DNA of 20,000 nucleotides from an uncultured virus (IMG/VR IMGVR_UViG_3300044631_001772) (IMGVR_UViG_3300044631_001772:53980-73979), one strand, 5' to 3'; shown: positions 2-13,159, counted from the first letter of the stretch. Notes: generated by a model from the sequence alone, not told the origin. Translations and numbers: made by a program.

Positions 2-1189
2 ATTCGTGAGAAAAAAGACCAGATTAAATCTCTTGAACTTAAGAAAGAAACTCTTAAGGATAAGATGAAGATGCAACAGAGTTTCATTGAGGAACTTGAA
101 AATCGTGGTAATGCCAATATCAATGCCAATAAAGAAAAGATTGTCAATTTAGATGCAGAAGTTGGCATTTATATGACCGAAAGTGCCAAAACCGAAGAGC
201 AGATTTTTACCTATACTAAAGAGCAGGAAGAACTCATTGGTGCCGATGATAAGTTAGTAAAACTAAACAATCTTAAGGGCAAAATATCACAGAAAGTATC
301 TGCTATTACCAAAGAACATAAGTTTTTCACAGAAAATACGGTCTGCCCCACTTGCACTCAAACAATTGAAGAAGAGTTTAGGTTAAATAGAATTGTACAC
401 GCTCAAAATAAAGCAAAGGAACTCCAGAAAGGTTTTCAAGAACTTGAGGAGACTATAAAGTTAGAACAAGAACGAGAGCGTCAATTCGCAGTTCTATCCA
501 AGGAGATTACGAAACTCAACCATGAGATTTCTCAAAACAATACTCGCATTTCACTCAACCAGAGACAAATCCGAGACCTTGAATCTGAAATTCAAACTAT
601 TACCCAAAACCTTGCAAACAGAAATACTGAGCATGAGAAGTTAGAAGAATTTCAAACCAATCTCCAAAAAACATTCGAAGACCTTTCAAAGAAAAAAGAA
701 GAAATCGTTTATTACGATTTTGCCTATTCCTTACTCAAGGACGATGGCGTTAAAACGAAGATAATCAAGAAGTATCTTCCGTTTATAAATCAGCAGGTGA
801 ATCGTTATCTTCAGATGATGGATTTTTATATTAATTTTGAATTGGATTCTGAATTTAATGAGAGTGTTAAGTCACCTATTCATGAAGATTTCTCATACTC
901 TTCATTTTCTGAAGGTGAAAAGGCAAGAATTGATTTGAGTTTGCTGTTTGCTTGGCGTGAAGTTGCAAGAGTCAAAAACTCCGTAAATTGCAATATTCTT
1001 TTATTTGACGAAGTTTTTGACTCTTCTCTTGATGGTTTTGGTGCGGATGAATTTTTAAAAATTATTAGATATGTGGTTAAAGATACTAATGTTTTTGTAA
1101 TTTCTCATAAAACAGACCTTCAAGATAAGTTTGATACGACTCTAAAATTTGAAAAGAAAAAAGGATTTTCTTATAAAACTGAATTATAA
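2..1189 (+). CDS. gp46: Recombination endonuclease ATPase subunit gp46 (SbcC/Rad50-like), 5' truncated by the window edge
   Basis: Frame is open from position 2 (IREKKDQIKS...). It has a coiled coil, a CPTC zinc hook, the signature SFSEGEKARIDL, Walker B/D-loop LLFDEVFDSSLD and H-loop VISH. Confidence 0.96.
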   Translation: MREKKDQIKSLELKKETLKDKMKMQQSFIEELENRGNANINANKEKIVNLDAEVGIYMTESAKTEEQIFTYTKEQEELIGADDKLVKLNNLKGKISQKVSAITKEHKFFTENTVCPTCTQTIEEEFRLNRIVHAQNKAKELQKGFQELEETIKLEQERERQFAVLSKEITKLNHEISQNNTRISLNQRQIRDLESEIQTITQNLANRNTEHEKLEEFQTNLQKTFEDLSKKKEEIVYYDFAYSLLKDDGVKTKIIKKYLPFINQQVNRYLQMMDFYINFELDSEFNESVKSPIHEDFSYSSFSEGEKARIDLSLLFAWREVARVKNSVNCNILLFDEVFDSSLDGFGADEFLKIIRYVVKDTNVFVISHKTDLQDKFDTTLKFEKKKGFSYKTEL

Positions 1190-1191
1190 GA

Positions 1192-1240
1192 CACTTTCTC
1201 AACTGGACTCCTTGACTTCCGTAAATACAGATAGTAATCT
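1192..1240 (+). promoter_or_regulatory. Sigma70-type early promoter with upstream palindromic element
   Basis: TTGACT (1212-1217), 17 bp spacer, TAATCT (1235-1240). CACTT-TCTC-AACTG lies at 1192-1205. Confidence 0.65.
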
Positions 1241-1261
1241 GTCCTCACAAGCACAAGACTA

Positions 1262-1396
1262 ATGCAAGTCCCCAACCGCTACCATCATTCTAAAAAGGAG
1301 CAGAAGCGGAAACTGAAACCGCAAGCACTTCGACAAGCAAAGGCACGACGCCAAGCACTCAAGAAAAAGCACTCCGAAAGGGGTGTTTTTTTATAA
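1262..1396 (+). CDS. Small very basic protein (44 aa), MQVPNRYHHSKKEQKRKLKPQALRQAKARRQALKKKHSERGVFL; not in the ORF track
   Basis: Translated by hand: ATG 1262 to TAA 1394-1396. It sits directly behind a sigma70-like promoter and fills the intergenic gap. Confidence 0.75.
   Translation: MQVPNRYHHSKKEQKRKLKPQALRQAKARRQALKKKHSERGVFL
1369..1392 (+). terminator. Intrinsic terminator inside the 3' end of the 44-aa ORF
   Basis: GCACTCC-GAAA-GGGGTG stem with a GNRA loop, followed by T7 (1386-1392). Confidence 0.8.
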
Positions 1397-1399
1397 ATA
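1392..1399 (+). promoter_or_regulatory. T4-type late promoter (gp55 sigma)
   Basis: Exact TATAAATA starting 27 nt before the ATG at 1419. Confidence 0.85.
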
Positions 1400-1418: not shown

Positions 1419-2312
1419 ATGAAAGTGAAAGAATATCTAGAATTAGTTGAGGCATATCAAAAAGTTTATGAACAACAAATTGGAGTTCCTTTAAAAGAAC
1501 CAACTGATCGTGCTGCAAAGGATCAACTTGAAAAAATGATACCCAAAGGAGAAAAGGTTCACACATTCAAGGGTGGGCTGCAAAAAGCACATTATGAACT
1601 AGAAGGTGAAGTTCTTGATGAAGATCTTTATGATGAAGTTTTAGATTATCTTATTAATGAGGGATGTACTTTAGAAGAATCAAACTATATTATGTCTTAC
1701 GTTGTGGAACAAGGAATGAATCCACAGGAAGTAATTGGTAGAGGAATTGCAAATATTCTTGGATTTGATAAACCACATCCAACTCAGGTTTTTGCCCAAG
1801 GATTGAGAAAAATGCTCTATCCAAATAAACCAAAAGAAGTTAAAGCTCCTAAAGCACCTGCTCCTAAAATAACAAAAACTGCTTCTCCAGCAGCAAAACC
1901 ACCAGCACCAACAAAACCAAATCCATATAGACCTGGTGCTACAGTTAGAGCAACTGGACCAAATATGGATAAGTTTCCAGAACTTCAACGATTTGCTGGA
2001 CAGGCAAGAAAAGTTGCTGAACCAGTTGCTAAAACTGCTGGTGCCGTTTCTGCGCTAAGAAATATTGCCAGTTCTGGTCGTGTTGGTGCTGCTGCTCCTG
2101 CTGCTGCTGTAATGGCACCCAAACCAGTTGGTGATGCCACATTAACTGGTGCTCTTAAGAGAGGAGATTATAAACCAAAACAAGGACCAAAAAATCCAGA
2201 TCAAGGTTTGACTAGAGCACAGTCTTTTGATAAGGCATATAAAACAGCAAAACAGAAGAGTGGAATGGGTTCTACTTTTACTTGGAACAACAAATCTTAT
2301 AAGGTTGCTTAA
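1419..2312 (+). CDS. Hypothetical late protein with acidic N-terminal part and Pro/Ala/Lys-rich basic C-terminal part; possible virion internal protein
   Basis: 297-aa ORF after a late promoter. It shares the LxEAYQxVY and D(L/M)(Y/F)..(V/I)L..L..EG motifs with the next ORF. Confidence 0.8.
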   Translation: MKVKEYLELVEAYQKVYEQQIGVPLKEPTDRAAKDQLEKMIPKGEKVHTFKGGLQKAHYELEGEVLDEDLYDEVLDYLINEGCTLEESNYIMSYVVEQGMNPQEVIGRGIANILGFDKPHPTQVFAQGLRKMLYPNKPKEVKAPKAPAPKITKTASPAAKPPAPTKPNPYRPGATVRATGPNMDKFPELQRFAGQARKVAEPVAKTAGAVSALRNIASSGRVGAAAPAAAVMAPKPVGDATLTGALKRGDYKPKQGPKNPDQGLTRAQSFDKAYKTAKQKSGMGSTFTWNNKSYKVA

Positions 2313-2313
2313 T

Positions 2314-2321
2314 TATAAATA
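2314..2321 (+). promoter_or_regulatory. T4-type late promoter
   Basis: Exact TATAAATA starting 27 nt before the ATG at 2341. Confidence 0.85.
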
Positions 2322-2340
2322 ACTAAAAAGTAGTTGTAAG

Positions 2341-2910
2341 ATGAACTCAAAAGAACTTCGTGCCCTTCAAGAAGCCTATCAGCAAGTTTATTCTTCTCAA
2401 GAGGAAGTAGAGCAACTTGATGAAGGTAGAACAACGAGTCTCAGTGCTCTTTCACGTGAATCTCAAAAGCGTAAAGAAGATAAGGAAAGAGGAAGACCAG
2501 AAACTAAGTCTGAAACTCACGGCAGATTAATGTTGGGTAAATTCCGTCCAGGAGCTTCTAAAGAGGAGAGAGCAGAAGGTGGTCGTGAGAGACTTAGAGA
2601 TAGGGGAAAAGTTCCTAAAAAAGGCGGTAAAGATATGTTTGAGCATATCTTGGAGCACCTAGTTGCCGAAGGTTATGCTGACACCAACAATGCAGCACTT
2701 GCTATTATGGCAAACATGAGTGAAGAGTGGAGGCAGAGTATTATTGAGCAAACCGCAAGAATTGATTATGTTCAGGATAAATTTAATCGTCAAAATGCTG
2801 AAAAATCTGGATCAGGTCTTACTTATATTCCAGGAAAACAAAATGCTGGACAAGCATTACAAAAGGCCAAAGAGTCTGCAAGACAAATGGGAAAACTTGA
2901 AGGTGCGTGA
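2341..2910 (+). CDS. Hypothetical late protein with motifs paralogous to 1419..2312; possible virion internal protein
   Basis: 189-aa ORF with N-terminal MNSKELRALQEAYQQVY and internal DMFEHILEHLVAEGYADTNNAALAIMANMSEEW. Confidence 0.8.
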   Translation: MNSKELRALQEAYQQVYSSQEEVEQLDEGRTTSLSALSRESQKRKEDKERGRPETKSETHGRLMLGKFRPGASKEERAEGGRERLRDRGKVPKKGGKDMFEHILEHLVAEGYADTNNAALAIMANMSEEWRQSIIEQTARIDYVQDKFNRQNAEKSGSGLTYIPGKQNAGQALQKAKESARQMGKLEGA

Positions 2911-2933
2911 GTCCACTTTTTAAACTGGTACAT

Positions 2934-2960
2934 AAGAGGGTTTCACCACCCTCTTTTTTT
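2934..2960 (+). terminator. Intrinsic terminator after the late gene pair
   Basis: AAGAGGG-TTTCACCA-CCCTCTT followed by a T run. Confidence 0.85.
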
Positions 2961-2961
2961 G

Positions 2962-2972
2962 TATGATAAATA
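2962..2972 (+). promoter_or_regulatory. Overlapping -10 box (TATGAT) and late-type promoter (GATAAATA)
   Basis: TATGAT at 2962-2967 starts 39 bp after the AACTG of the palindrome at 2914-2927. GATAAATA is at 2965-2972. Confidence 0.5.
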
Positions 2973-3009
2973 GTTGAACCTAATACGACGGCAATCTGTT
3001 AGGATGGTT

Positions 3010-3031
3010 AAGGCACTTTCGGGTGCCTTTT
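3010..3031 (+). terminator. UUCG-tetraloop hairpin, probably a weak terminator
   Basis: AAGGCACT-TTCG-GGTGCCTT-TT; the T tract is only 4 nt. Confidence 0.65.
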
Positions 3032-3035
3032 CCTG

Positions 3036-3043
3036 TATAAATA
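3036..3043 (+). promoter_or_regulatory. T4-type late promoter for the endonuclease gene
   Basis: Exact TATAAATA upstream of the ATG at 3068. Confidence 0.85.
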
Positions 3044-3067
3044 CTTATGCCGTTGTATTAGAGTAGG

Positions 3068-3787
3068 ATGAAAAATCCAAAAAGATTTTATACTTACGCT
3101 TATTTGCGTAAAGATGGAACTCCTTATTATATTGGTAAGGGCCAAAGAGATAGGGCATATAGTAAAAATCACATCAATATTTTTGTTCCACCAAAAGAAC
3201 GGATTTTGTTTTTAAAGAAAAATCTTTTAGAAGAAGAGGCATTTAATCACGAAAAGTATATGATTGCTGTTTTTGGTAGAAAAGATTTGGGGACAGGTAT
3301 TCTGCATAATAGGACAGAAGGTGGTGATGGAACATCAAATATAAGTGATATTACAAAGGAAAAAATGAGACAAAAAAAACTTGGTAAGTCCCTATCTCAA
3401 AAACATAGAGAAAAATTGAGTAAAGTTAGAAAGGGAAATAAAAGATGGAATAATGGTATAAAAGAAAAACTTTGTAAAGAATGTCCTGGTGATGGTTGGG
3501 TTCTTGGAAGAATTATATCAAACAAAGTAGGTGTTGAATATGGTAAATGGAATATTGGTAGAAAAGCAACACCAGAAACTTTAAAAAAACTTTCTAATAG
3601 AAGTATAAAATATGAATATACAATTCAAAGTCCTGATGAAAATATTTTCATTACTAATAATATGAAAAAATTTTGTGAAGAACATAATTTAACTGCTCGT
3701 TTAATGACTTCTGTTGCTCGTGGTAAGTATACAAACCATAAGGGTTGGAAGGTTGTGACAGTTGAGGAACTGGATAAAAAGGTGTGA
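3068..3787 (+). CDS. Free-standing GIY-YIG-type homing endonuclease with NUMOD3-like DNA-binding repeats
   Basis: FYTYAY...PYYIGKG..R nuclease motif, then HEK and LHNRTEGGDG. NUMOD3-like segments SDITKEKMRQKKLGKSLSQKHREKLS and GRKATPETLKKLS. AT-rich, with its own late promoter. Confidence 0.85.
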   Translation: MKNPKRFYTYAYLRKDGTPYYIGKGQRDRAYSKNHINIFVPPKERILFLKKNLLEEEAFNHEKYMIAVFGRKDLGTGILHNRTEGGDGTSNISDITKEKMRQKKLGKSLSQKHREKLSKVRKGNKRWNNGIKEKLCKECPGDGWVLGRIISNKVGVEYGKWNIGRKATPETLKKLSNRSIKYEYTIQSPDENIFITNNMKKFCEEHNLTARLMTSVARGKYTNHKGWKVVTVEELDKKV

Positions 3788-3834: not shown

Positions 3835-5982
3835 ATGTCCGTTAAGTTTGAAGTCAAAGGGTCCCTTGCTCGTTTATTGGCGACGGAGGACCTTGTGGTG
3901 GAACATAAAAAGGTAGAAACTGCTTGTTTTAATGTCCATACAAGGGTATTGACCTTACCTATGTGGGAAAAAGCGAGTGATAATATTTACACCATGCTTG
4001 TCCTGCACGAAATTAGCCATGCCCTTTGGACCCCAAATTATGATTGGACTAAAGAATGTAAAGTCCCAGCGACTTTTGTAAATATTTGTGAGGATGTGCG
4101 TGTAGAAAAACTTTGTAAAAGAAAATATCCAGGTTCTCCTAAAAGTTTTTATAGTGGTTACAAGGAACTTGCCGATGATGACTTCTTTCAAATCAAAGAT
4201 GATAATGTAGAAACTTATAACCTTGCTGACCGTGCAAACCTGTGGTTCAAGATTGGCAATTATGTTGATGTGCCGATTGAGCGTGGTGAAGAGACTGAGA
4301 TTATCAAACTGATTGCTAATACTGAGACCTTTGCTGATGTGTTAATTGCTGCAGAAGCATTGTATAAGTATTGTAAGCAAAAGCAACAGGAAGAAACCAA
4401 GACTTCTCTGGATAGTCTTGAGTTGCAACAAAGTGGTGCCGATAATCAACCTGCTTCTGATTTTAGTGATCAGGAGCAAGGTGAGAGCGATCAACCTGAA
4501 ACTGAGGGTTCTGATCGTGCTTCCTCTTCTGAAGAAAATTCTCAGCAACAGCAACCTACGAATGAAGGTGGTGAGAAGAATGAGGAACCTGAAGTCAAAA
4601 CGATGGAGTCTCTTGAAGAGGCACTGAAAGAACTCGTCGGTACTAACCCTTATGAGAATGTTTATCTTGAACTGCCTCAACTTGATTTGACTAAAGTTAT
4701 TGTTCCCAATCAAGAGATTCATTCCAAGTGTAAAGAATCTTGGGATGACTTTCTTACAAGAAATGATTATAAGTATGAGAATATCTTTGGTGAAGTTGAT
4801 AAGCAGTATTTTGAATTCAAGCGTTCTGCTCAAAAGGAAGTCAACTATCTGGTGAAAGAGTTTGAGTGTCGCAAGGCAGCAGATTCCTATGCACGTGCAT
4901 CAACTGCCCGTACTGGCGTTCTGGACTGCTCCAAACTGCACACTTACAAGTATAATGAAGATATCTTCAGGAAGGTTACAACTCTTGCTGATGGTAAGAA
5001 TCATGGTCTGGTGTTCGTTCTAGACTGGTCTGGTTCTATGTCCAATGTGATGCTGGATACTGCCAAACAACTCTTCAATCTTATTTGGTTTTGTAAAAAA
5101 GTTGCGATTCCGTTTGAGGTCTATGCCTTCACCACTGATTATCCTCTTGTAAAGTATGATGTAGATGGTAAGGCAAACATTCGTGAACTTGCCTACAAGA
5201 AGAAAGATGGTCTTGTTCAGGTGGGTGAATGGTTCTCTATGATGAATCTTCTCACCAGCAAAGTGAATTCAAACACTCTGGAGGAGCAGATGAAAAATAT
5301 CTTTCGTCTTGCTAAGTCATTCTCTTATAATTCTCACTGCTACTATTCTACTCCTCTTGGAATGGGACTTTCAGGCACTCCCCTGAATGAGGCACTGATT
5401 TCTCTTCACCAGATTCTGCCTAAGTTCCAGAAGGAGAACAAACTGCAGAAAGTTCAGTGTGTGGTTTTGACTGATGGTGAGGGTTGCCTTGTGAAATATC
5501 ATCGTGAGGTTCAACGCCGCTGGGAGGATAACCCCTTTATGGGCACTGCTCATATTGGATCTAATGCCTTTCTTCGCGATCGTAAGACTGGAATGACCTA
5601 TTCTTGTGACTATGAGCATCAGGATTTCACTGAGGTTCTTCTTCACAATTTGCGGGACAAGTTTATTGATATTAACTTTATTGGTATTCGTGTTCTTGAA
5701 TCTCGTGATGCTGGCGCTTTTATTCGTCGCTACTGTGGATATTATGGTTCTGAGTATGATAAGGTAACGAACGCTTGGAAAAAAGAGAAAGCATTTATTC
5801 TTAAGAATTCTGGTTATCATTCCTACTTCGGTCTGTCTGCAAACACTCTTTCTCAGGAATCTGAGTTTGCTGTTGCTGAGGATGCAACAAAGGCACAAAT
5901 TAAATCCGCATTTGTGAAAAGTCTTAAAACTAAAAAAATGAATAAGAAAATTTTGGGTGAGTTTGTGGAACTTGTTGCTTGA
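3835..5982 (+). CDS. cobT: CobT-like protein: N-terminal HEXXH metallopeptidase-like domain, acidic linker, C-terminal vWA domain
   Basis: LHEISH motif, E/Q/S-rich linker, MIDAS motifs VLDWSGSM, SGTPL and VLTDGEG. Sits next to a cobS-like ATPase, as in T4-like cyanophages. Confidence 0.88.
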   Translation: MSVKFEVKGSLARLLATEDLVVEHKKVETACFNVHTRVLTLPMWEKASDNIYTMLVLHEISHALWTPNYDWTKECKVPATFVNICEDVRVEKLCKRKYPGSPKSFYSGYKELADDDFFQIKDDNVETYNLADRANLWFKIGNYVDVPIERGEETEIIKLIANTETFADVLIAAEALYKYCKQKQQEETKTSLDSLELQQSGADNQPASDFSDQEQGESDQPETEGSDRASSSEENSQQQQPTNEGGEKNEEPEVKTMESLEEALKELVGTNPYENVYLELPQLDLTKVIVPNQEIHSKCKESWDDFLTRNDYKYENIFGEVDKQYFEFKRSAQKEVNYLVKEFECRKAADSYARASTARTGVLDCSKLHTYKYNEDIFRKVTTLADGKNHGLVFVLDWSGSMSNVMLDTAKQLFNLIWFCKKVAIPFEVYAFTTDYPLVKYDVDGKANIRELAYKKKDGLVQVGEWFSMMNLLTSKVNSNTLEEQMKNIFRLAKSFSYNSHCYYSTPLGMGLSGTPLNEALISLHQILPKFQKENKLQKVQCVVLTDGEGCLVKYHREVQRRWEDNPFMGTAHIGSNAFLRDRKTGMTYSCDYEHQDFTEVLLHNLRDKFIDINFIGIRVLESRDAGAFIRRYCGYYGSEYDKVTNAWKKEKAFILKNSGYHSYFGLSANTLSQESEFAVAEDATKAQIKSAFVKSLKTKKMNKKILGEFVELVA

Positions 5983-9099: not shown

Positions 9100-9107
9100 T
9101 ATAAATA
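9100..9107 (+). promoter_or_regulatory. T4-type late promoter for the HNH endonuclease
   Basis: Exact TATAAATA upstream of the ATG at 9132. Confidence 0.85.
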
Positions 9108-12834: not shown

Positions 12835-13159
12835 CGAAGACCCTTCACTTGAGAAGGAATATGCACCCTATATTATCAATCGCTGCTTTTCTGGGCACAT
12901 TGATTGTTTGATGTATGCAAATGAAATGAATCAATATCATTTCCTCCCAAAAAAGATGCAATATGACTTTTATATAAATAGTCTGAGGAAAAAGAAGAGA
13001 TTTTCTCCCTGGCTCCGTCAAGATAAAATCAAAGACCTTGATTATGTCAAACGTTATTATGGTTATAGTAATGAGAAGGCAAAACAAGCTTTGAGGATTC
13101 TTACTAAAGAACAACTAACATTTATTAAATCGAAATTTGAAACTGGAGGAACAAAATGA
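12779..13159 (+). CDS. gp62: Clamp loader small subunit
   Basis: MELKDWLNSIN...YAPYIINRCFS...LRKKKRFSPW...VKRYYGYSNEKAKQAL. ATG at 12779; located before regA. Confidence 0.92.
   Translation: MELKDWLNSINQTKQHLIDEDPSLEKEYAPYIINRCFSGHIDCLMYANEMNQYHFLPKKMQYDFYINSLRKKKRFSPWLRQDKIKDLDYVKRYYGYSNEKAKQALRILTKEQLTFIKSKFETGGTK

What the first reader, a model, noticed from the sequence alone, without database searches (positions are those of the whole stretch)
1212..1399. Small basic ORF whose terminator ends transcription just before its stop codon: possible phage nonstop-mRNA / ribosome-rescue-type system
Seen in sequence: a self-contained unit of sigma70 promoter, 44-codon Lys/Arg-rich ORF and a GAAA-loop terminator. 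The T7 tract ends at 1392, while the stop codon is at 1394-1396, so a transcript terminating there would have no stop codon. The last residues (HSERGVFL) are simply the translated hairpin. Established: the alternative ribosome-rescue factors ArfA (E. coli) and BrfA (B. subtilis) are small basic proteins made from nonstop mRNAs truncated at an internal hairpin. tmRNA tagging destroys them unless trans-translation is saturated. Inference: this may be a phage ribosome-binding or rescue factor, or another tmRNA-gated protein. I see no convincing sequence homology to ArfA beyond a weak RYHH versus RYQH N-terminal resemblance.
Basis: partly seen in the sequence, partly recalled or inferred. Interest (0 to 1): 0.8.

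Follow-up and report, generated by a model that had tools for sequence, protein, structure and literature searches.

The report
Cyanophage micro-gene ending inside its terminator
A tiny, very basic protein gene found in hundreds of cyanobacterial T4-like viruses runs straight through its own transcription terminator before reaching a stop codon, the layout bacteria use for back-up ribosome-rescue genes, but what the protein does is still unknown.

Summary
ORF 1262-1396 (44 aa) is a real gene (phrog_3309): across 79 distinct DNA versions every third codon position varies while 36 residues stay conserved. Its last conserved codons form a 13-bp hairpin (-16.4 kcal/mol, z -6.4) followed by T7 (1386-1392). 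The stop (1394-1396) lies beyond it, inside a TATAAATA late-promoter-like box. Of 204 distinct relatives, 145 have the stop downstream of an in-frame hairpin, with unconserved tails. Of 37 other terminators in the same phages, 34 follow the stop. So the ArfA/BrfA-like "non-stop" anatomy is genuine and conserved in this clade.

It is not universal. At least 24 relatives stop normally, 9 are fused to a secreted protein, and 12 end at a tRNA gene.

No sequence similarity to ArfA, BrfA or any solved protein was found, and no transcript ends could be mapped. Gating by trans-translation is plausible (about 0.4). A ribosome-rescue function is speculative (about 0.1).

This scan noted the same family, with the same reading, on other DNA (e1-5986224).

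The parts
2..1189 (+). 3' part of the gp46-type recombination endonuclease gene (SbcC-like), upstream neighbour
   Evidence: phrog_77 E 1.2e-95. Annotated as recombination endonuclease subunit in S-SRM01 at the matching place.
1212..1240 (+). Sigma-70-type promoter-like site: TTGACT, 17 nt, TAATCT
   Evidence: Read. Not listed by the consensus scan because the -10 box matches only 3 of 6. TTGACn-N16-18-TAnnnT is conserved at this place in 18 of 140 relatives. Function is inferred.
1262..1396 (+). 44-codon ORF including stop; family phrog_3309
   Evidence: phrog_3309 E 1.4e-11. 343 protein clusters, all unnamed or 'hypothetical'.
1262..1369 (+). Conserved core, residues 1-36: PN(R/W)xHHSKK motif, LKPQA motif, then a basic helix
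   Evidence: All 32 third codon positions vary. Ser TCN/AGY, Arg CGN/AGR and Leu CTN/TTR switches occur. Differing codon pairs: 32743 synonymous against 11464 non-synonymous. AlphaFold2 on 33 sequences: pLDDT 83.9, coil 1-11, helices 12-16 and 20-36. The core has 14 K+R against 1 D+E.
1363..1392 (+). Intrinsic-terminator hairpin (G/C core 1370-1375 / 1380-1385, GAAA loop) whose 5' arm is made of codons 34-38
   Evidence: -16.4 kcal/mol, z -6.4. Among 106 relatives, 76 distinct hairpin sequences each keep 8-14 pairs.
1386..1392 (+). T7 tract, where terminated transcripts are expected to end
   Evidence: 118 of 145 relatives have at least 6 T in the 9 nt after the stem. The 3' end itself is not mapped.
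1394..1396 (+). First in-frame stop (TAA), one base after the T-tract
   Evidence: Its third base lies 11 nt after the last G/C of the stem.
1392..1399 (+). TATAAATA box (T4-type late-promoter-like) that supplies the stop codon and precedes the next gene
   Evidence: 5 matches in the window, all on the + strand, 1.4 expected. ATAAATA follows the T-tract in most relatives. That this is the T4 late-promoter consensus is recalled, not tested.
1419..2312 (+). Downstream ORF (297 aa, no family), first of three ORFs inserted here relative to other phages
   Evidence: In other phages the small gene directly precedes the phrog_459 'peptidase' gene, which here lies at 3835-5982.

Best explanation
This is a self-contained early gene cassette of T4-like cyanophages. 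A host-type promoter drives a 36-residue conserved, very basic peptide: an N-terminal PN(W/R)xHHSKK motif, an LKPQA motif, then an amphipathic basic helix. An intrinsic terminator begins in the peptide's last conserved codons. The reading frame therefore runs through the hairpin and the U-tract, and the first stop lies at or beyond the point where transcripts end. In the window it is one base after the T7, inside the next gene's TATAAATA box. Elsewhere it lies up to about 90 nt further on.

Shown: the gene is real and under purifying selection. The in-frame terminator is conserved through compensatory change. The tail is unconstrained. This layout is peculiar to this gene among the phages' terminators.

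Inferred: most terminated messages carry no usable stop codon. Ribosomes then run to the 3' end, and the yield of free peptide depends on how the host resolves non-stop complexes (tmRNA-SmpB tagging, ArfB, RqcH). The peptide would accumulate mainly when trans-translation is saturated, for example once infection floods the cell with broken mRNAs. This is the logic of arfA and brfA.

The peptide's own activity is unknown. My best guess is binding to RNA or the ribosome through its basic helix.
For: Real gene: codon-level pattern in 79 distinct DNA versions. phrog_3309 match. 146 representative clusters at E<=1e-3, 343 clusters at 90% identity, and more than 540 relatives per IMG/VR scan.

Terminator inside the frame: window hairpin z -6.4. 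145 of 204 distinct loci have the stop downstream of an in-frame hairpin of -8 kcal/mol or better. In 137 of them the stop's last base is at least 10 nt after the last G/C of the stem, and in 106 at least 13 nt. 76 distinct hairpin sequences keep pairing, with several pair types at each stem position. Tails occur in all three frames, for example ..GVFL..ASSFINI..VFFYK.

Peculiar to this gene: of 37 other terminators in the same record and flanks, 34 have the stop before the hairpin, 2 in it and 1 after. In-frame stops between core and T-run end: 0 of 76 hairpin types, against 9 and 8 of 76 in the other two frames.

A second kind of RNA end at the same place: in 12 loci the ORF ends -16 to +19 nt from the 5' end of a tRNA gene. 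The stop abuts or lies inside the tRNA in 8 of these.

Hosts have the machinery: in Table 1 of PMC11633108, of 162 cyanobacterial genomes 161 have smpB, 155 ssrA, 90 arfB, 0 arfA and 161 rqcH.

Design precedent: the arfA hairpin and the brfA terminator before the stop (PMC8012679, passages).
Against: No 3' end is mapped. In the window the stop begins 2 nt after the T-run, with its last base 11 nt after the stem, so some transcripts could include UAA. 30 of 145 relatives are similarly borderline (offset 10-11).

The layout is not needed for the peptide to work. 24 of 204 relatives have ordinary stops without a hairpin. These include a set whose stop overlaps the next gene's ATG (ATGA) and a set with a semi-conserved ..LNVTxxSLS tail. 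A further 9 are fused in frame to a secreted protein. L155 and L231 have the stop inside the hairpin.

G+C-rich hairpins rarely contain stops anyway (about 11% in the other frames), so frame openness is weak evidence.

The loci are the best 80 of four biased queries, so the proportions do not describe the whole family.

Terminator read-through could supply stop-bearing messages.

Earlier notes of this scan report stop-less layouts for membrane microproteins too (unchecked). If true, the layout does not by itself point to ribosome rescue.
Confidence: 0.4

Rival explanations
1. Ordinary small early protein. The terminator overlaps the 3' end of the gene only because the genome is compact and the residues after position 36 do not matter. 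The protein is made from transcripts that include the stop, either because 3' ends lie a few bases beyond the T-tract or because of read-through. The non-stop fraction is tolerated waste.
For: Family members with ordinary stops, ATGA coupling to the next gene, or in-frame fusion show that the peptide functions when terminated normally. In the window the stop is 1 nt after the T7, and in 30 of 145 relatives the offset is only 10-11 nt. The stop comes from the adjoining promoter box, with no sign of selection on its position. The baseline frequency of stops in such hairpins is low.
Against: The other terminators of these phages almost always follow the stop (34 of 37), so compaction alone does not usually give this layout. 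In 106 of 145 relatives the stop ends at least 13 nt after the stem, and up to 99 nt. There, read-through would have to supply all product, yet the peptide stays under strong purifying selection.
Confidence: 0.35
2. One reading: the peptide is a phage-made alternative ribosome-rescue factor or other ribosome-binding factor. It would work like ArfA, BrfA or ArfT, inserting a basic segment into the empty mRNA channel of stalled ribosomes and perhaps recruiting a release factor.
For: Same gene design as arfA and brfA. Small size and charge: 14 K+R in 36 residues, with a confident helix at 20-36. The review's authors expect further small release-factor-recruiting factors that sequence similarity cannot find, and note that ArfT has only about 40 residues (PMC8012679, passages). 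A pelagiphage gene (HTVC027P gp30) is reported to carry an ArfA domain, so phage-borne rescue factors have a precedent by annotation (PMC12753301, passage). Cyanobacteria lack arfA.
Against: No similarity to ArfA, BrfA, ArfB or SmpB by Pfam, NCBIfam, a PDB profile search or a six-frame scan. A KH pair near the C-terminus, conserved between ArfA and BrfA, is present in the window (K36-H37) but in only 22 of 145 hairpin-type relatives. In 9 relatives the same peptide forms the N-terminus of a secreted protein, which is odd for a ribosome factor. Nothing bears on ribosome binding.
Confidence: 0.1
3. Translation-sensing terminator or operon-end device. Because the frame covers the hairpin, a ribosome close behind the polymerase would hinder hairpin formation and allow early read-through into the downstream late genes. 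Alternatively, ribosomes reaching the 3' end would trigger non-stop decay of the gp46 operon message. The peptide would be secondary.
For: In 31 of 140 relatives the ATG overlaps the stop of a long upstream ORF (TAATG), so the small gene is the last cistron before the terminator. The hairpin is followed at once by a promoter box, recalling the composite terminator/promoter cassettes (PeSLs) of T4-like phages (PMC4122927, abstract and introduction passages).
Against: A device of this kind does not need 36 conserved residues with Ser, Arg and Leu codon-family switches. No alternative antiterminator pairing is seen in the predicted transcript. The peptide persists in contexts without any hairpin.
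Confidence: 0.1
4. Vestige: the ORF is a leftover N-terminal piece of the signal peptide of the longer secreted protein (phrog_3309 + phrog_767 fusion) and has no function of its own.
For: Long forms continue ..LKKKLLAASVVLVG..AHA|E like a signal peptide. phrog_767 starts at residue 33 of these. tRNA-adjacent short forms end ..KKKLLVLA, like a truncated hydrophobic core.
Against: Strong purifying selection in stand-alone forms across hundreds of contigs. Short forms far outnumber long ones in the sample: 9 long of 204. The window's tail (HSERGVFL) has no hydrophobic core.
Confidence: 0.03
5. Small non-coding RNA between promoter and terminator, the ORF being accidental.
For: A roughly 145-nt unit with a promoter-like site and a terminator. 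A-, C- and G-rich sequence with repeated AAGCAC words.
Against: No Rfam family at gathering score. The substitution pattern is that of a protein. Apart from the terminator the transcript folds little better than shuffles (z -2.3 for the whole).
Confidence: 0.01

Closest known systems
brfA (yqkK) of Bacillus subtilis
   Same: Small basic protein gene with a rho-independent terminator inside the reading frame before the stop, so the message is non-stop and output is controlled by trans-translation (PMC8012679, passages). The window and 145 of 204 relatives show the same anatomy.
   Different: No sequence similarity: the PDB profile search, which covers the BrfA chain of the entry named in the review, found only one chance hit at E 0.41. 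This is a phage gene, not a host gene. The conserved part is 36 residues, against about 62 for active BrfA. RF2 recruitment is untested. Some family members have normal stops.
arfA (yhdL) of E. coli, Pfam PF03889
   Same: A hairpin inside the ORF acts as terminator or RNase III site, giving a non-stop message. The product is a small basic protein. The tail of the full-length product is dispensable (PMC8012679).
   Different: The Pfam ArfA model does not match. The KH pair is not conserved in the family. The predicted structure is mostly one long helix.
PeSLs, composite terminator/promoter cassettes of T4-like phages
   Same: A stem-loop terminator directly abutting a promoter box at gene junctions of T4-type genomes (PMC4122927, abstract and introduction; PMC2839356, search listing only). 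Here the hairpin and T7 are followed at once by TATAAATA, or by ..TTTTGTATAAT in a sister group.
   Different: PeSLs are described as intergenic regulatory modules. Here the stem-loop is part of a conserved reading frame, and the promoter box supplies its stop codon. In the window the box is of the late type.
phrog_3309 / phrog_767 fusion proteins of Syn9, S-RIM8, S-RIM50 ('cAMP phosphodiesterase', gp5)
   Same: The same 36-residue module, 69-72% identical to the window's (PHROG hits).
   Different: There it is the N-terminus of a 111-189-residue protein with a hydrophobic signal-peptide-like segment and a His-rich domain. There is no in-frame terminator.
Pelagiphage HTVC027P gp30 (ArfA-domain protein)
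   Same: A marine phage gene annotated as an alternative ribosome-rescue factor, expressed early and late (PMC12753301, passage). It shows that phages can carry such factors.
   Different: It matches Pfam ArfA, and this family does not. Its gene layout was not examined here.

Membership tests
ArfA (Pfam PF03889) | Sequence match to the ArfA profile | tested here: not met
   No hit at E<=10 for the window peptide, 3 phage homologues and 13 further relatives. A six-frame scan of the whole 73,979-base record found none, while the E. coli control passes the cut-off.
ArfA / BrfA (non-stop rescue-factor genes) | Hairpin or terminator inside the ORF ahead of the stop, so that the mRNA is non-stop | tested here: met
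   Anatomy only. Window hairpin 1363-1392, T7 1386-1392, stop 1394-1396. 145 of 204 relatives have the stop downstream of the hairpin. Transcript 3' ends are not mapped.
ArfA / BrfA | Conserved KH motif in the basic C-terminal part that lies in the mRNA channel | tested here: not met
   K36-H37 is present in the window, but KH occurs at that place in only 22 of 145 hairpin-type relatives and in 0 of 12 tRNA-type and 0 of 9 long forms. The motif is as described in PMC8012679.
ArfA / BrfA / ArfT | Binds stalled non-stop ribosomes and recruits RF1 or RF2 to release the peptide | not testable with these tools
   Needs biochemistry or genetics.
ArfA / BrfA | Product level repressed by tmRNA-SmpB | not testable with these tools
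   The RNA runs found hold contigs only over the gp46 part (900-1160) and nothing on the small gene.
BrfA (solved in complex with the ribosome) | Sequence similarity to the BrfA chain | tested here: not met
   The profile of 9 family members against 177,635 distinct PDB chain sequences gave one chance hit at E 0.41, a flagellar protein.
phrog_3309 (phage protein family, unknown function) | Match to the family profile over its length | tested here: met
   E 1.4e-11, residues 1-36 on profile positions 1-37 of 42.
Signal peptide of phrog_767-type secreted proteins | Hydrophobic core and AxA cleavage site after the basic region | tested here: not met
   The window's tail is HSERGVFL, the translated hairpin. 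The long forms have LLAASVVLVG..AHA.
PeSL composite terminator/promoter cassette | Stem-loop terminator immediately followed by an early promoter between genes | tested here: inconclusive
   The hairpin and T7 are followed by TATAAATA, but that box is of the late type (recalled consensus) and the stem-loop is coding. A sister group has ..TTTTGTATAAT.
Known RNA families (Rfam 15) | Match at gathering score | tested here: not met
   0 matches in the whole window.

The most novel reading that the evidence does not exclude
T4-like cyanophages carry a widespread micro-protein made only when the host's trans-translation system is overwhelmed. It then acts on the translation apparatus itself, either freeing ribosomes stranded on the broken mRNAs that infection creates or blocking tmRNA-SmpB access. 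This would be a virus-owned, sequence-unrelated counterpart of ArfA, BrfA and ArfT in a host phylum that has no ArfA.
Probability: 0.1. Interest if true: 0.85.

Novelty: new variant of a known kind. Interest (0 to 1): 0.55.

Why it matters
In the review read here, genes expressed on purpose from stop-less messages are described for only two bacterial rescue factors, arfA and brfA (PMC8012679). This work shows the same layout conserved across at least 145 distinct versions of a gene in abundant aquatic viruses. The peptide is unrelated to ArfA and BrfA.

If the layout is functional, it gives phages a built-in sensor of the host's ribosome-rescue capacity. It would also add a candidate to the small release or rescue factors that the review's authors predict cannot be found by sequence similarity.

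If it is only compaction, it still warns that gene callers mis-handle this gene. S-RSM4 leaves it unannotated, DSL-LC03 annotates another frame, and S-WAM2 calls the 41-residue form a 'cAMP phosphodiesterase'.

The question is directly testable with cultured phages that have the hairpin form, S-SRM01 and DSL-LC03.

Tried and rejected
RNA evidence: one search found 8 metatranscriptome runs holding 6-9% of the sampled words. The four that were laid are contigs covering only the conserved gp46 part (900-1160) and nothing at 1172-1900. This gives no information on expression or 3' ends.

tblastn of the peptide against cultured phages found only S-SRM01, because the low-complexity filter masks the basic region. 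blastn had found 112 records.

RNAalifold on a MAFFT alignment of 49 hairpin regions predicted no pairs, because stems and loops differ in length. Per-sequence folds were used instead.

A first hairpin scan with fixed window lengths missed most hairpins. It was replaced.

The ESM Atlas gave only unnamed small clusters.

Literature: 'cyanophage'+'tmRNA' gave 89 papers, and none of the 15 listed deals with this. 'ArfA'+'BrfA'+'phage', the non-stop/terminator/bacteriophage search, the five-term cyanophage/non-stop search (768 papers, none of the 15 listed mentions cyanophage) and 'phage-encoded'+'ribosome rescue'+'ArfA' found no description of this gene family. A Syn9 transcript-mapping paper was sought and not found in the library.

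Considered and dropped: resemblances recalled from memory to basic tails of other ribosome-binding proteins. No library hit supports them.

No complex prediction was run, because the report claims no binding pair.

Far-below-cut-off Shiga-toxin-B rows appear for an N-terminal extension of one distant relative (17 bits against cut-offs of 165-204). They are chance matches.

Full report
**What is there.** The window is the last 20 kb of a 73,979-base IMG/VR virus record, about 35% complete. It belongs to a T4-like cyanophage. The closest cultured relative at this locus is Synechococcus phage S-SRM01 (91% identity over 126 nt).

- The gp46-type SbcC-like nuclease gene ends at 1189 (phrog_77).
- Next comes TTGACT (1212-1217), 17 nt, TAATCT (1235-1240).
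- An ATG at 1262 opens a 44-codon frame that ends with TAA at 1394-1396.
- Codons 34-44 are a hairpin (1363-1375 paired with 1380-1392, GAAA loop) and a T7 run (1386-1392). The hairpin folds at -16.4 kcal/mol, z -6.4, and 0 of 200 shuffles fold as well.
- One base separates the T-run from the stop. The stop sits inside TATAAATA (1392-1399), 20 nt ahead of the next gene.
- That box occurs five times in the window, always on the + strand, against 1.4 expected. It equals the T4 late-promoter consensus (recalled, not tested).
- The simple consensus scan lists neither the promoter nor the terminator. The -10 box matches only 3 of 6. The stem probably swallows part of the T-run by pairing it with the upstream A-run.

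**It is a real gene.**

- blastn found the central 110 nt in 112 cultured cyanomyovirus records, in several genomic contexts.
- Translations of nine of these loci gave the same peptide.
- PHROGs places it in phrog_3309, of unknown function (E 1.4e-11).
- A profile search of 1.84 billion representatives found 146 clusters at E<=1e-3, nearly all of 33-120 residues.
- The word-indexed search found 343 clusters, none with an informative name.
- In 79 distinct DNA versions of codons 4-35, all 32 third positions vary. Ser switches between TCN and AGY, Arg between CGN and AGR, and Leu between CTN and TTR. Differing codon pairs are 32743 synonymous against 11464 non-synonymous.
- This rules out an accidental frame or a pure RNA element. 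Rfam finds nothing either.
- AlphaFold2 on 33 sequences gives a coil for residues 1-11 and helices at 12-16 and 20-36, with mean pLDDT 83.9.
- The core has 14 Lys+Arg and 1 acidic residue.

**The terminator inside the frame is conserved.** I pooled all loci and removed duplicates, leaving 204 distinct ones. I then searched for the best hairpin near the end of the core.

| Class | Loci (of 204) |
|---|---|
| Hairpin of -8 kcal/mol or better, first in-frame stop downstream of its last G/C pair | 145 |
| No hairpin, ordinary stop | 24 |
| ORF ends at a tRNA gene | 12 |
| Long fused form | 9 |
| Runs off the locus | 6 |
| Stop inside a hairpin | 5 |
| Stop before a hairpin | 3 |

- Of the 145, 118 have at least 6 T in the next 9 nt.
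- The last base of the stop lies at least 10 nt after the stem in 137, and at least 13 nt after it in 106. It is 11 nt in the window.
- Of the 5 with the stop inside a hairpin, only L155 and L231 look like true terminators.
- About four of the 145 are probably spurious hairpins (L096, L103, L236, L296).
- An earlier, stricter pass on 156 loci gave 106 with the stop after the hairpin and 2 with it inside.
- Among those 106 there are 76 distinct hairpin sequences, each with 8-14 pairs. Several pair types occur at each stem position (for example GC 19, TA 18, AT 17, CG 15 at the fifth pair). Pairing is therefore kept while the sequence turns over.
- The tails are read in all three frames (..GVFL..ASSFINI..VFFYK). 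They end wherever the following A+T-rich promoter box offers a stop.

**Is that unusual?** Yes, for these phages. I applied the same terminator criteria to the rest of the record and to the flanks of all loci. Of 37 other terminators, 34 lie after the stop of the gene they follow, 2 overlap it and 1 precedes it.

Frame openness is weaker evidence. Between the core and the end of the T-run, none of 76 hairpin types has a stop in the coding frame, against 9 and 8 in the other two frames. Such G+C-rich stems seldom contain stops in any frame.

**Other forms of the family, which limit the claim.**

- tRNA-linked (12 loci). The ORF ends -16 to +19 nt from the 5' end of a tRNA gene (Leu-UAA, Ile-UAU or Met-CAU). 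In 5 the stop lies inside the tRNA, in 3 it abuts it, and in 4 it lies 6-13 nt upstream. RNase P cuts at the tRNA 5' end (established knowledge). Eight of these 12 messages would therefore also end at or before their stop. This is a second, independent way to the same outcome, though tight packing of phage tRNA genes could explain it too.
- Ordinary stops. Eight loci end ..LEVIK with the stop overlapping the ATG of a roughly 60-residue acidic protein. A marine group ends ..LNVTxxSLS. Distant PNRYHNSGK-type relatives stop before or inside a terminator loop.
- Fusions (9 loci), among them Syn9 gp5 and the 'cAMP phosphodiesterase' of S-RIM8 and S-RIM50. The module is fused in frame to a hydrophobic, signal-peptide-like segment and a His-rich domain. 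phrog_767 begins at residue 33.

The peptide therefore works when terminated normally. The stop-less layout is a trait of a large clade, not of the whole family. Each scan kept only the 80 loci closest to its query, so these proportions are not a census.

**Upstream.** The window type, TTGACn-N16-18-TAnnnT, recurs in 18 of 140 hairpin-type loci with enough upstream DNA, and some have TATTAT as the -10 box. In 31 of the 140, the ATG instead overlaps the stop of a long upstream ORF (TAATG), with a TATGAT-like box inside that gene's end. A TAnnnT hexamer lies 12-32 nt before the ATG in 124 of the 140. I ran no control for so loose a motif.

**Comparison with the known.** According to the review PMC8012679 (passages read):

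- arfA carries a stem-loop that terminates transcription or is cut by RNase III.
- brfA carries a rho-independent terminator before its stop.
- Both give non-stop messages whose product is repressed by trans-translation.
- Both share a KH motif.
- ArfT has only about 40 residues.
- Further small factors of this kind may exist that sequence similarity cannot find.

The anatomy here matches. Membership does not. The Pfam ArfA model, NCBIfam, a PDB-wide profile search and a six-frame scan with the ArfA model all fail, and the E. coli control of that scan passes. KH is present in the window but in only 22 of 145 hairpin-type relatives.

Cyanobacteria have smpB (161 of 162 genomes), ssrA (155), rqcH (161) and often arfB (90), but no arfA (Table 1 of PMC11633108). 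The machinery that would act on such a message is therefore present in the hosts.

A pelagiphage gene with an ArfA domain has been reported (PMC12753301, passage). The hairpin-plus-promoter junction also recalls the PeSL cassettes of T4-like phages (PMC4122927, abstract and introduction).

**What I conclude.**

- Shown: a real, widespread, strongly conserved micro-protein gene. In the window's clade, its terminator starts in its last conserved codons and its stop lies beyond the U-tract.
- Inferred (about 0.4): most of its messages are non-stop, and its output is therefore tied to the state of the host's ribosome-rescue systems.
- Nearly as likely (about 0.35): the overlap is tolerated compaction, and stop-bearing transcripts supply the protein.
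- Speculative (about 0.1): the peptide itself acts on ribosomes.

Intrinsic termination is usually placed 7-9 nt after the stem (recalled). That would put the window's 3' ends at about 1392-1394, short of a complete UAA at 1396. Only mapping can settle this.

**Earlier notes of this scan.** A look-up by sequence showed that the same family was noted on another genome with the same reading (e1-5986224). I reached the reading independently and re-tested it here, but that note is not independent evidence. Other notes describe stop-less layouts in unrelated small basic genes and in membrane microproteins (unchecked). They made me more cautious about inferring a rescue function from the layout alone.

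**Limits.** No transcript data could be obtained. No supplements were consulted. The literature searches cover only the held library.

Noticed in passing
window 1392-1399, 2314-2321, 3036-3043, 9100-9107, 12973-12980: TATAAATA occurs five times, always on the + strand (1.4 expected; 3 of 200 shuffles reach 5). The first three each lie about 20-25 nt ahead of an ORF start (1419, 2341, 3068). They look like T4-type late promoters (consensus recalled).
   Followed up: partly
window 1419-3787: Three ORFs sit between the small gene and the phrog_459 'peptidase' gene (3835-5982). In other phages these two genes are adjacent (L005, L053). The three ORFs are 1419-2312, 2341-2910 and 3068-3787. The third is homing-endonuclease-like (phrog_314, phrog_2081). 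The first two begin with a similar ..L.EAYQ.VY motif and may be paralogues.
   Followed up: partly
L003, L004, L006, L007, L090-L092, L111, L126, L149, L190, L226: In 12 phages the small ORF is the 5' leader of a tRNA gene (Leu-UAA, Ile-UAU or Met-CAU), often behind a TGCTATAAT extended -10 box. In 5 of them the ORF's stop lies inside the tRNA.
   Followed up: partly
L002, L008, L009, L095, L105, L151, L165-L169, L175: Long forms fuse the module to a signal-peptide-like segment and a His-rich ..TW.EFWEPF..HHHH domain (phrog_767, annotated 'cAMP phosphodiesterase'; a glycine-zipper Pfam hit in S-RIM50). All long forms examined keep ..RR..LK.. just before the hydrophobic core, which resembles a twin-arginine export motif (my reading, untested).
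   Followed up: no
L096, L097, L113, L115, L119, L160: In phages where the small gene has an ordinary stop, that stop overlaps (ATGA) the start of a roughly 60-residue acidic protein (MTHYDKLID..EEFQ..WRASD). It is a possible partner of the basic peptide.
   Followed up: no
L004, L005, L007 (GenBank records): Annotation problems. S-RSM4 leaves the gene unannotated. DSL-LC03 annotates a different frame over it. S-WAM2 names the 41-residue stand-alone form 'cAMP phosphodiesterase protein', a name carried over from the fused forms.
   Followed up: yes
about 50-65 nt upstream of the ATG in many loci: A word like AAGTGTCA / AAGTGGCACA / AACTGTC(A/C)CAC recurs upstream of the small gene in unrelated contexts: inside the gp46 end, after a late-promoter box, and before tRNA-linked forms. 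It is unexplained and could be part of a promoter or a recombination joint.
   Followed up: no
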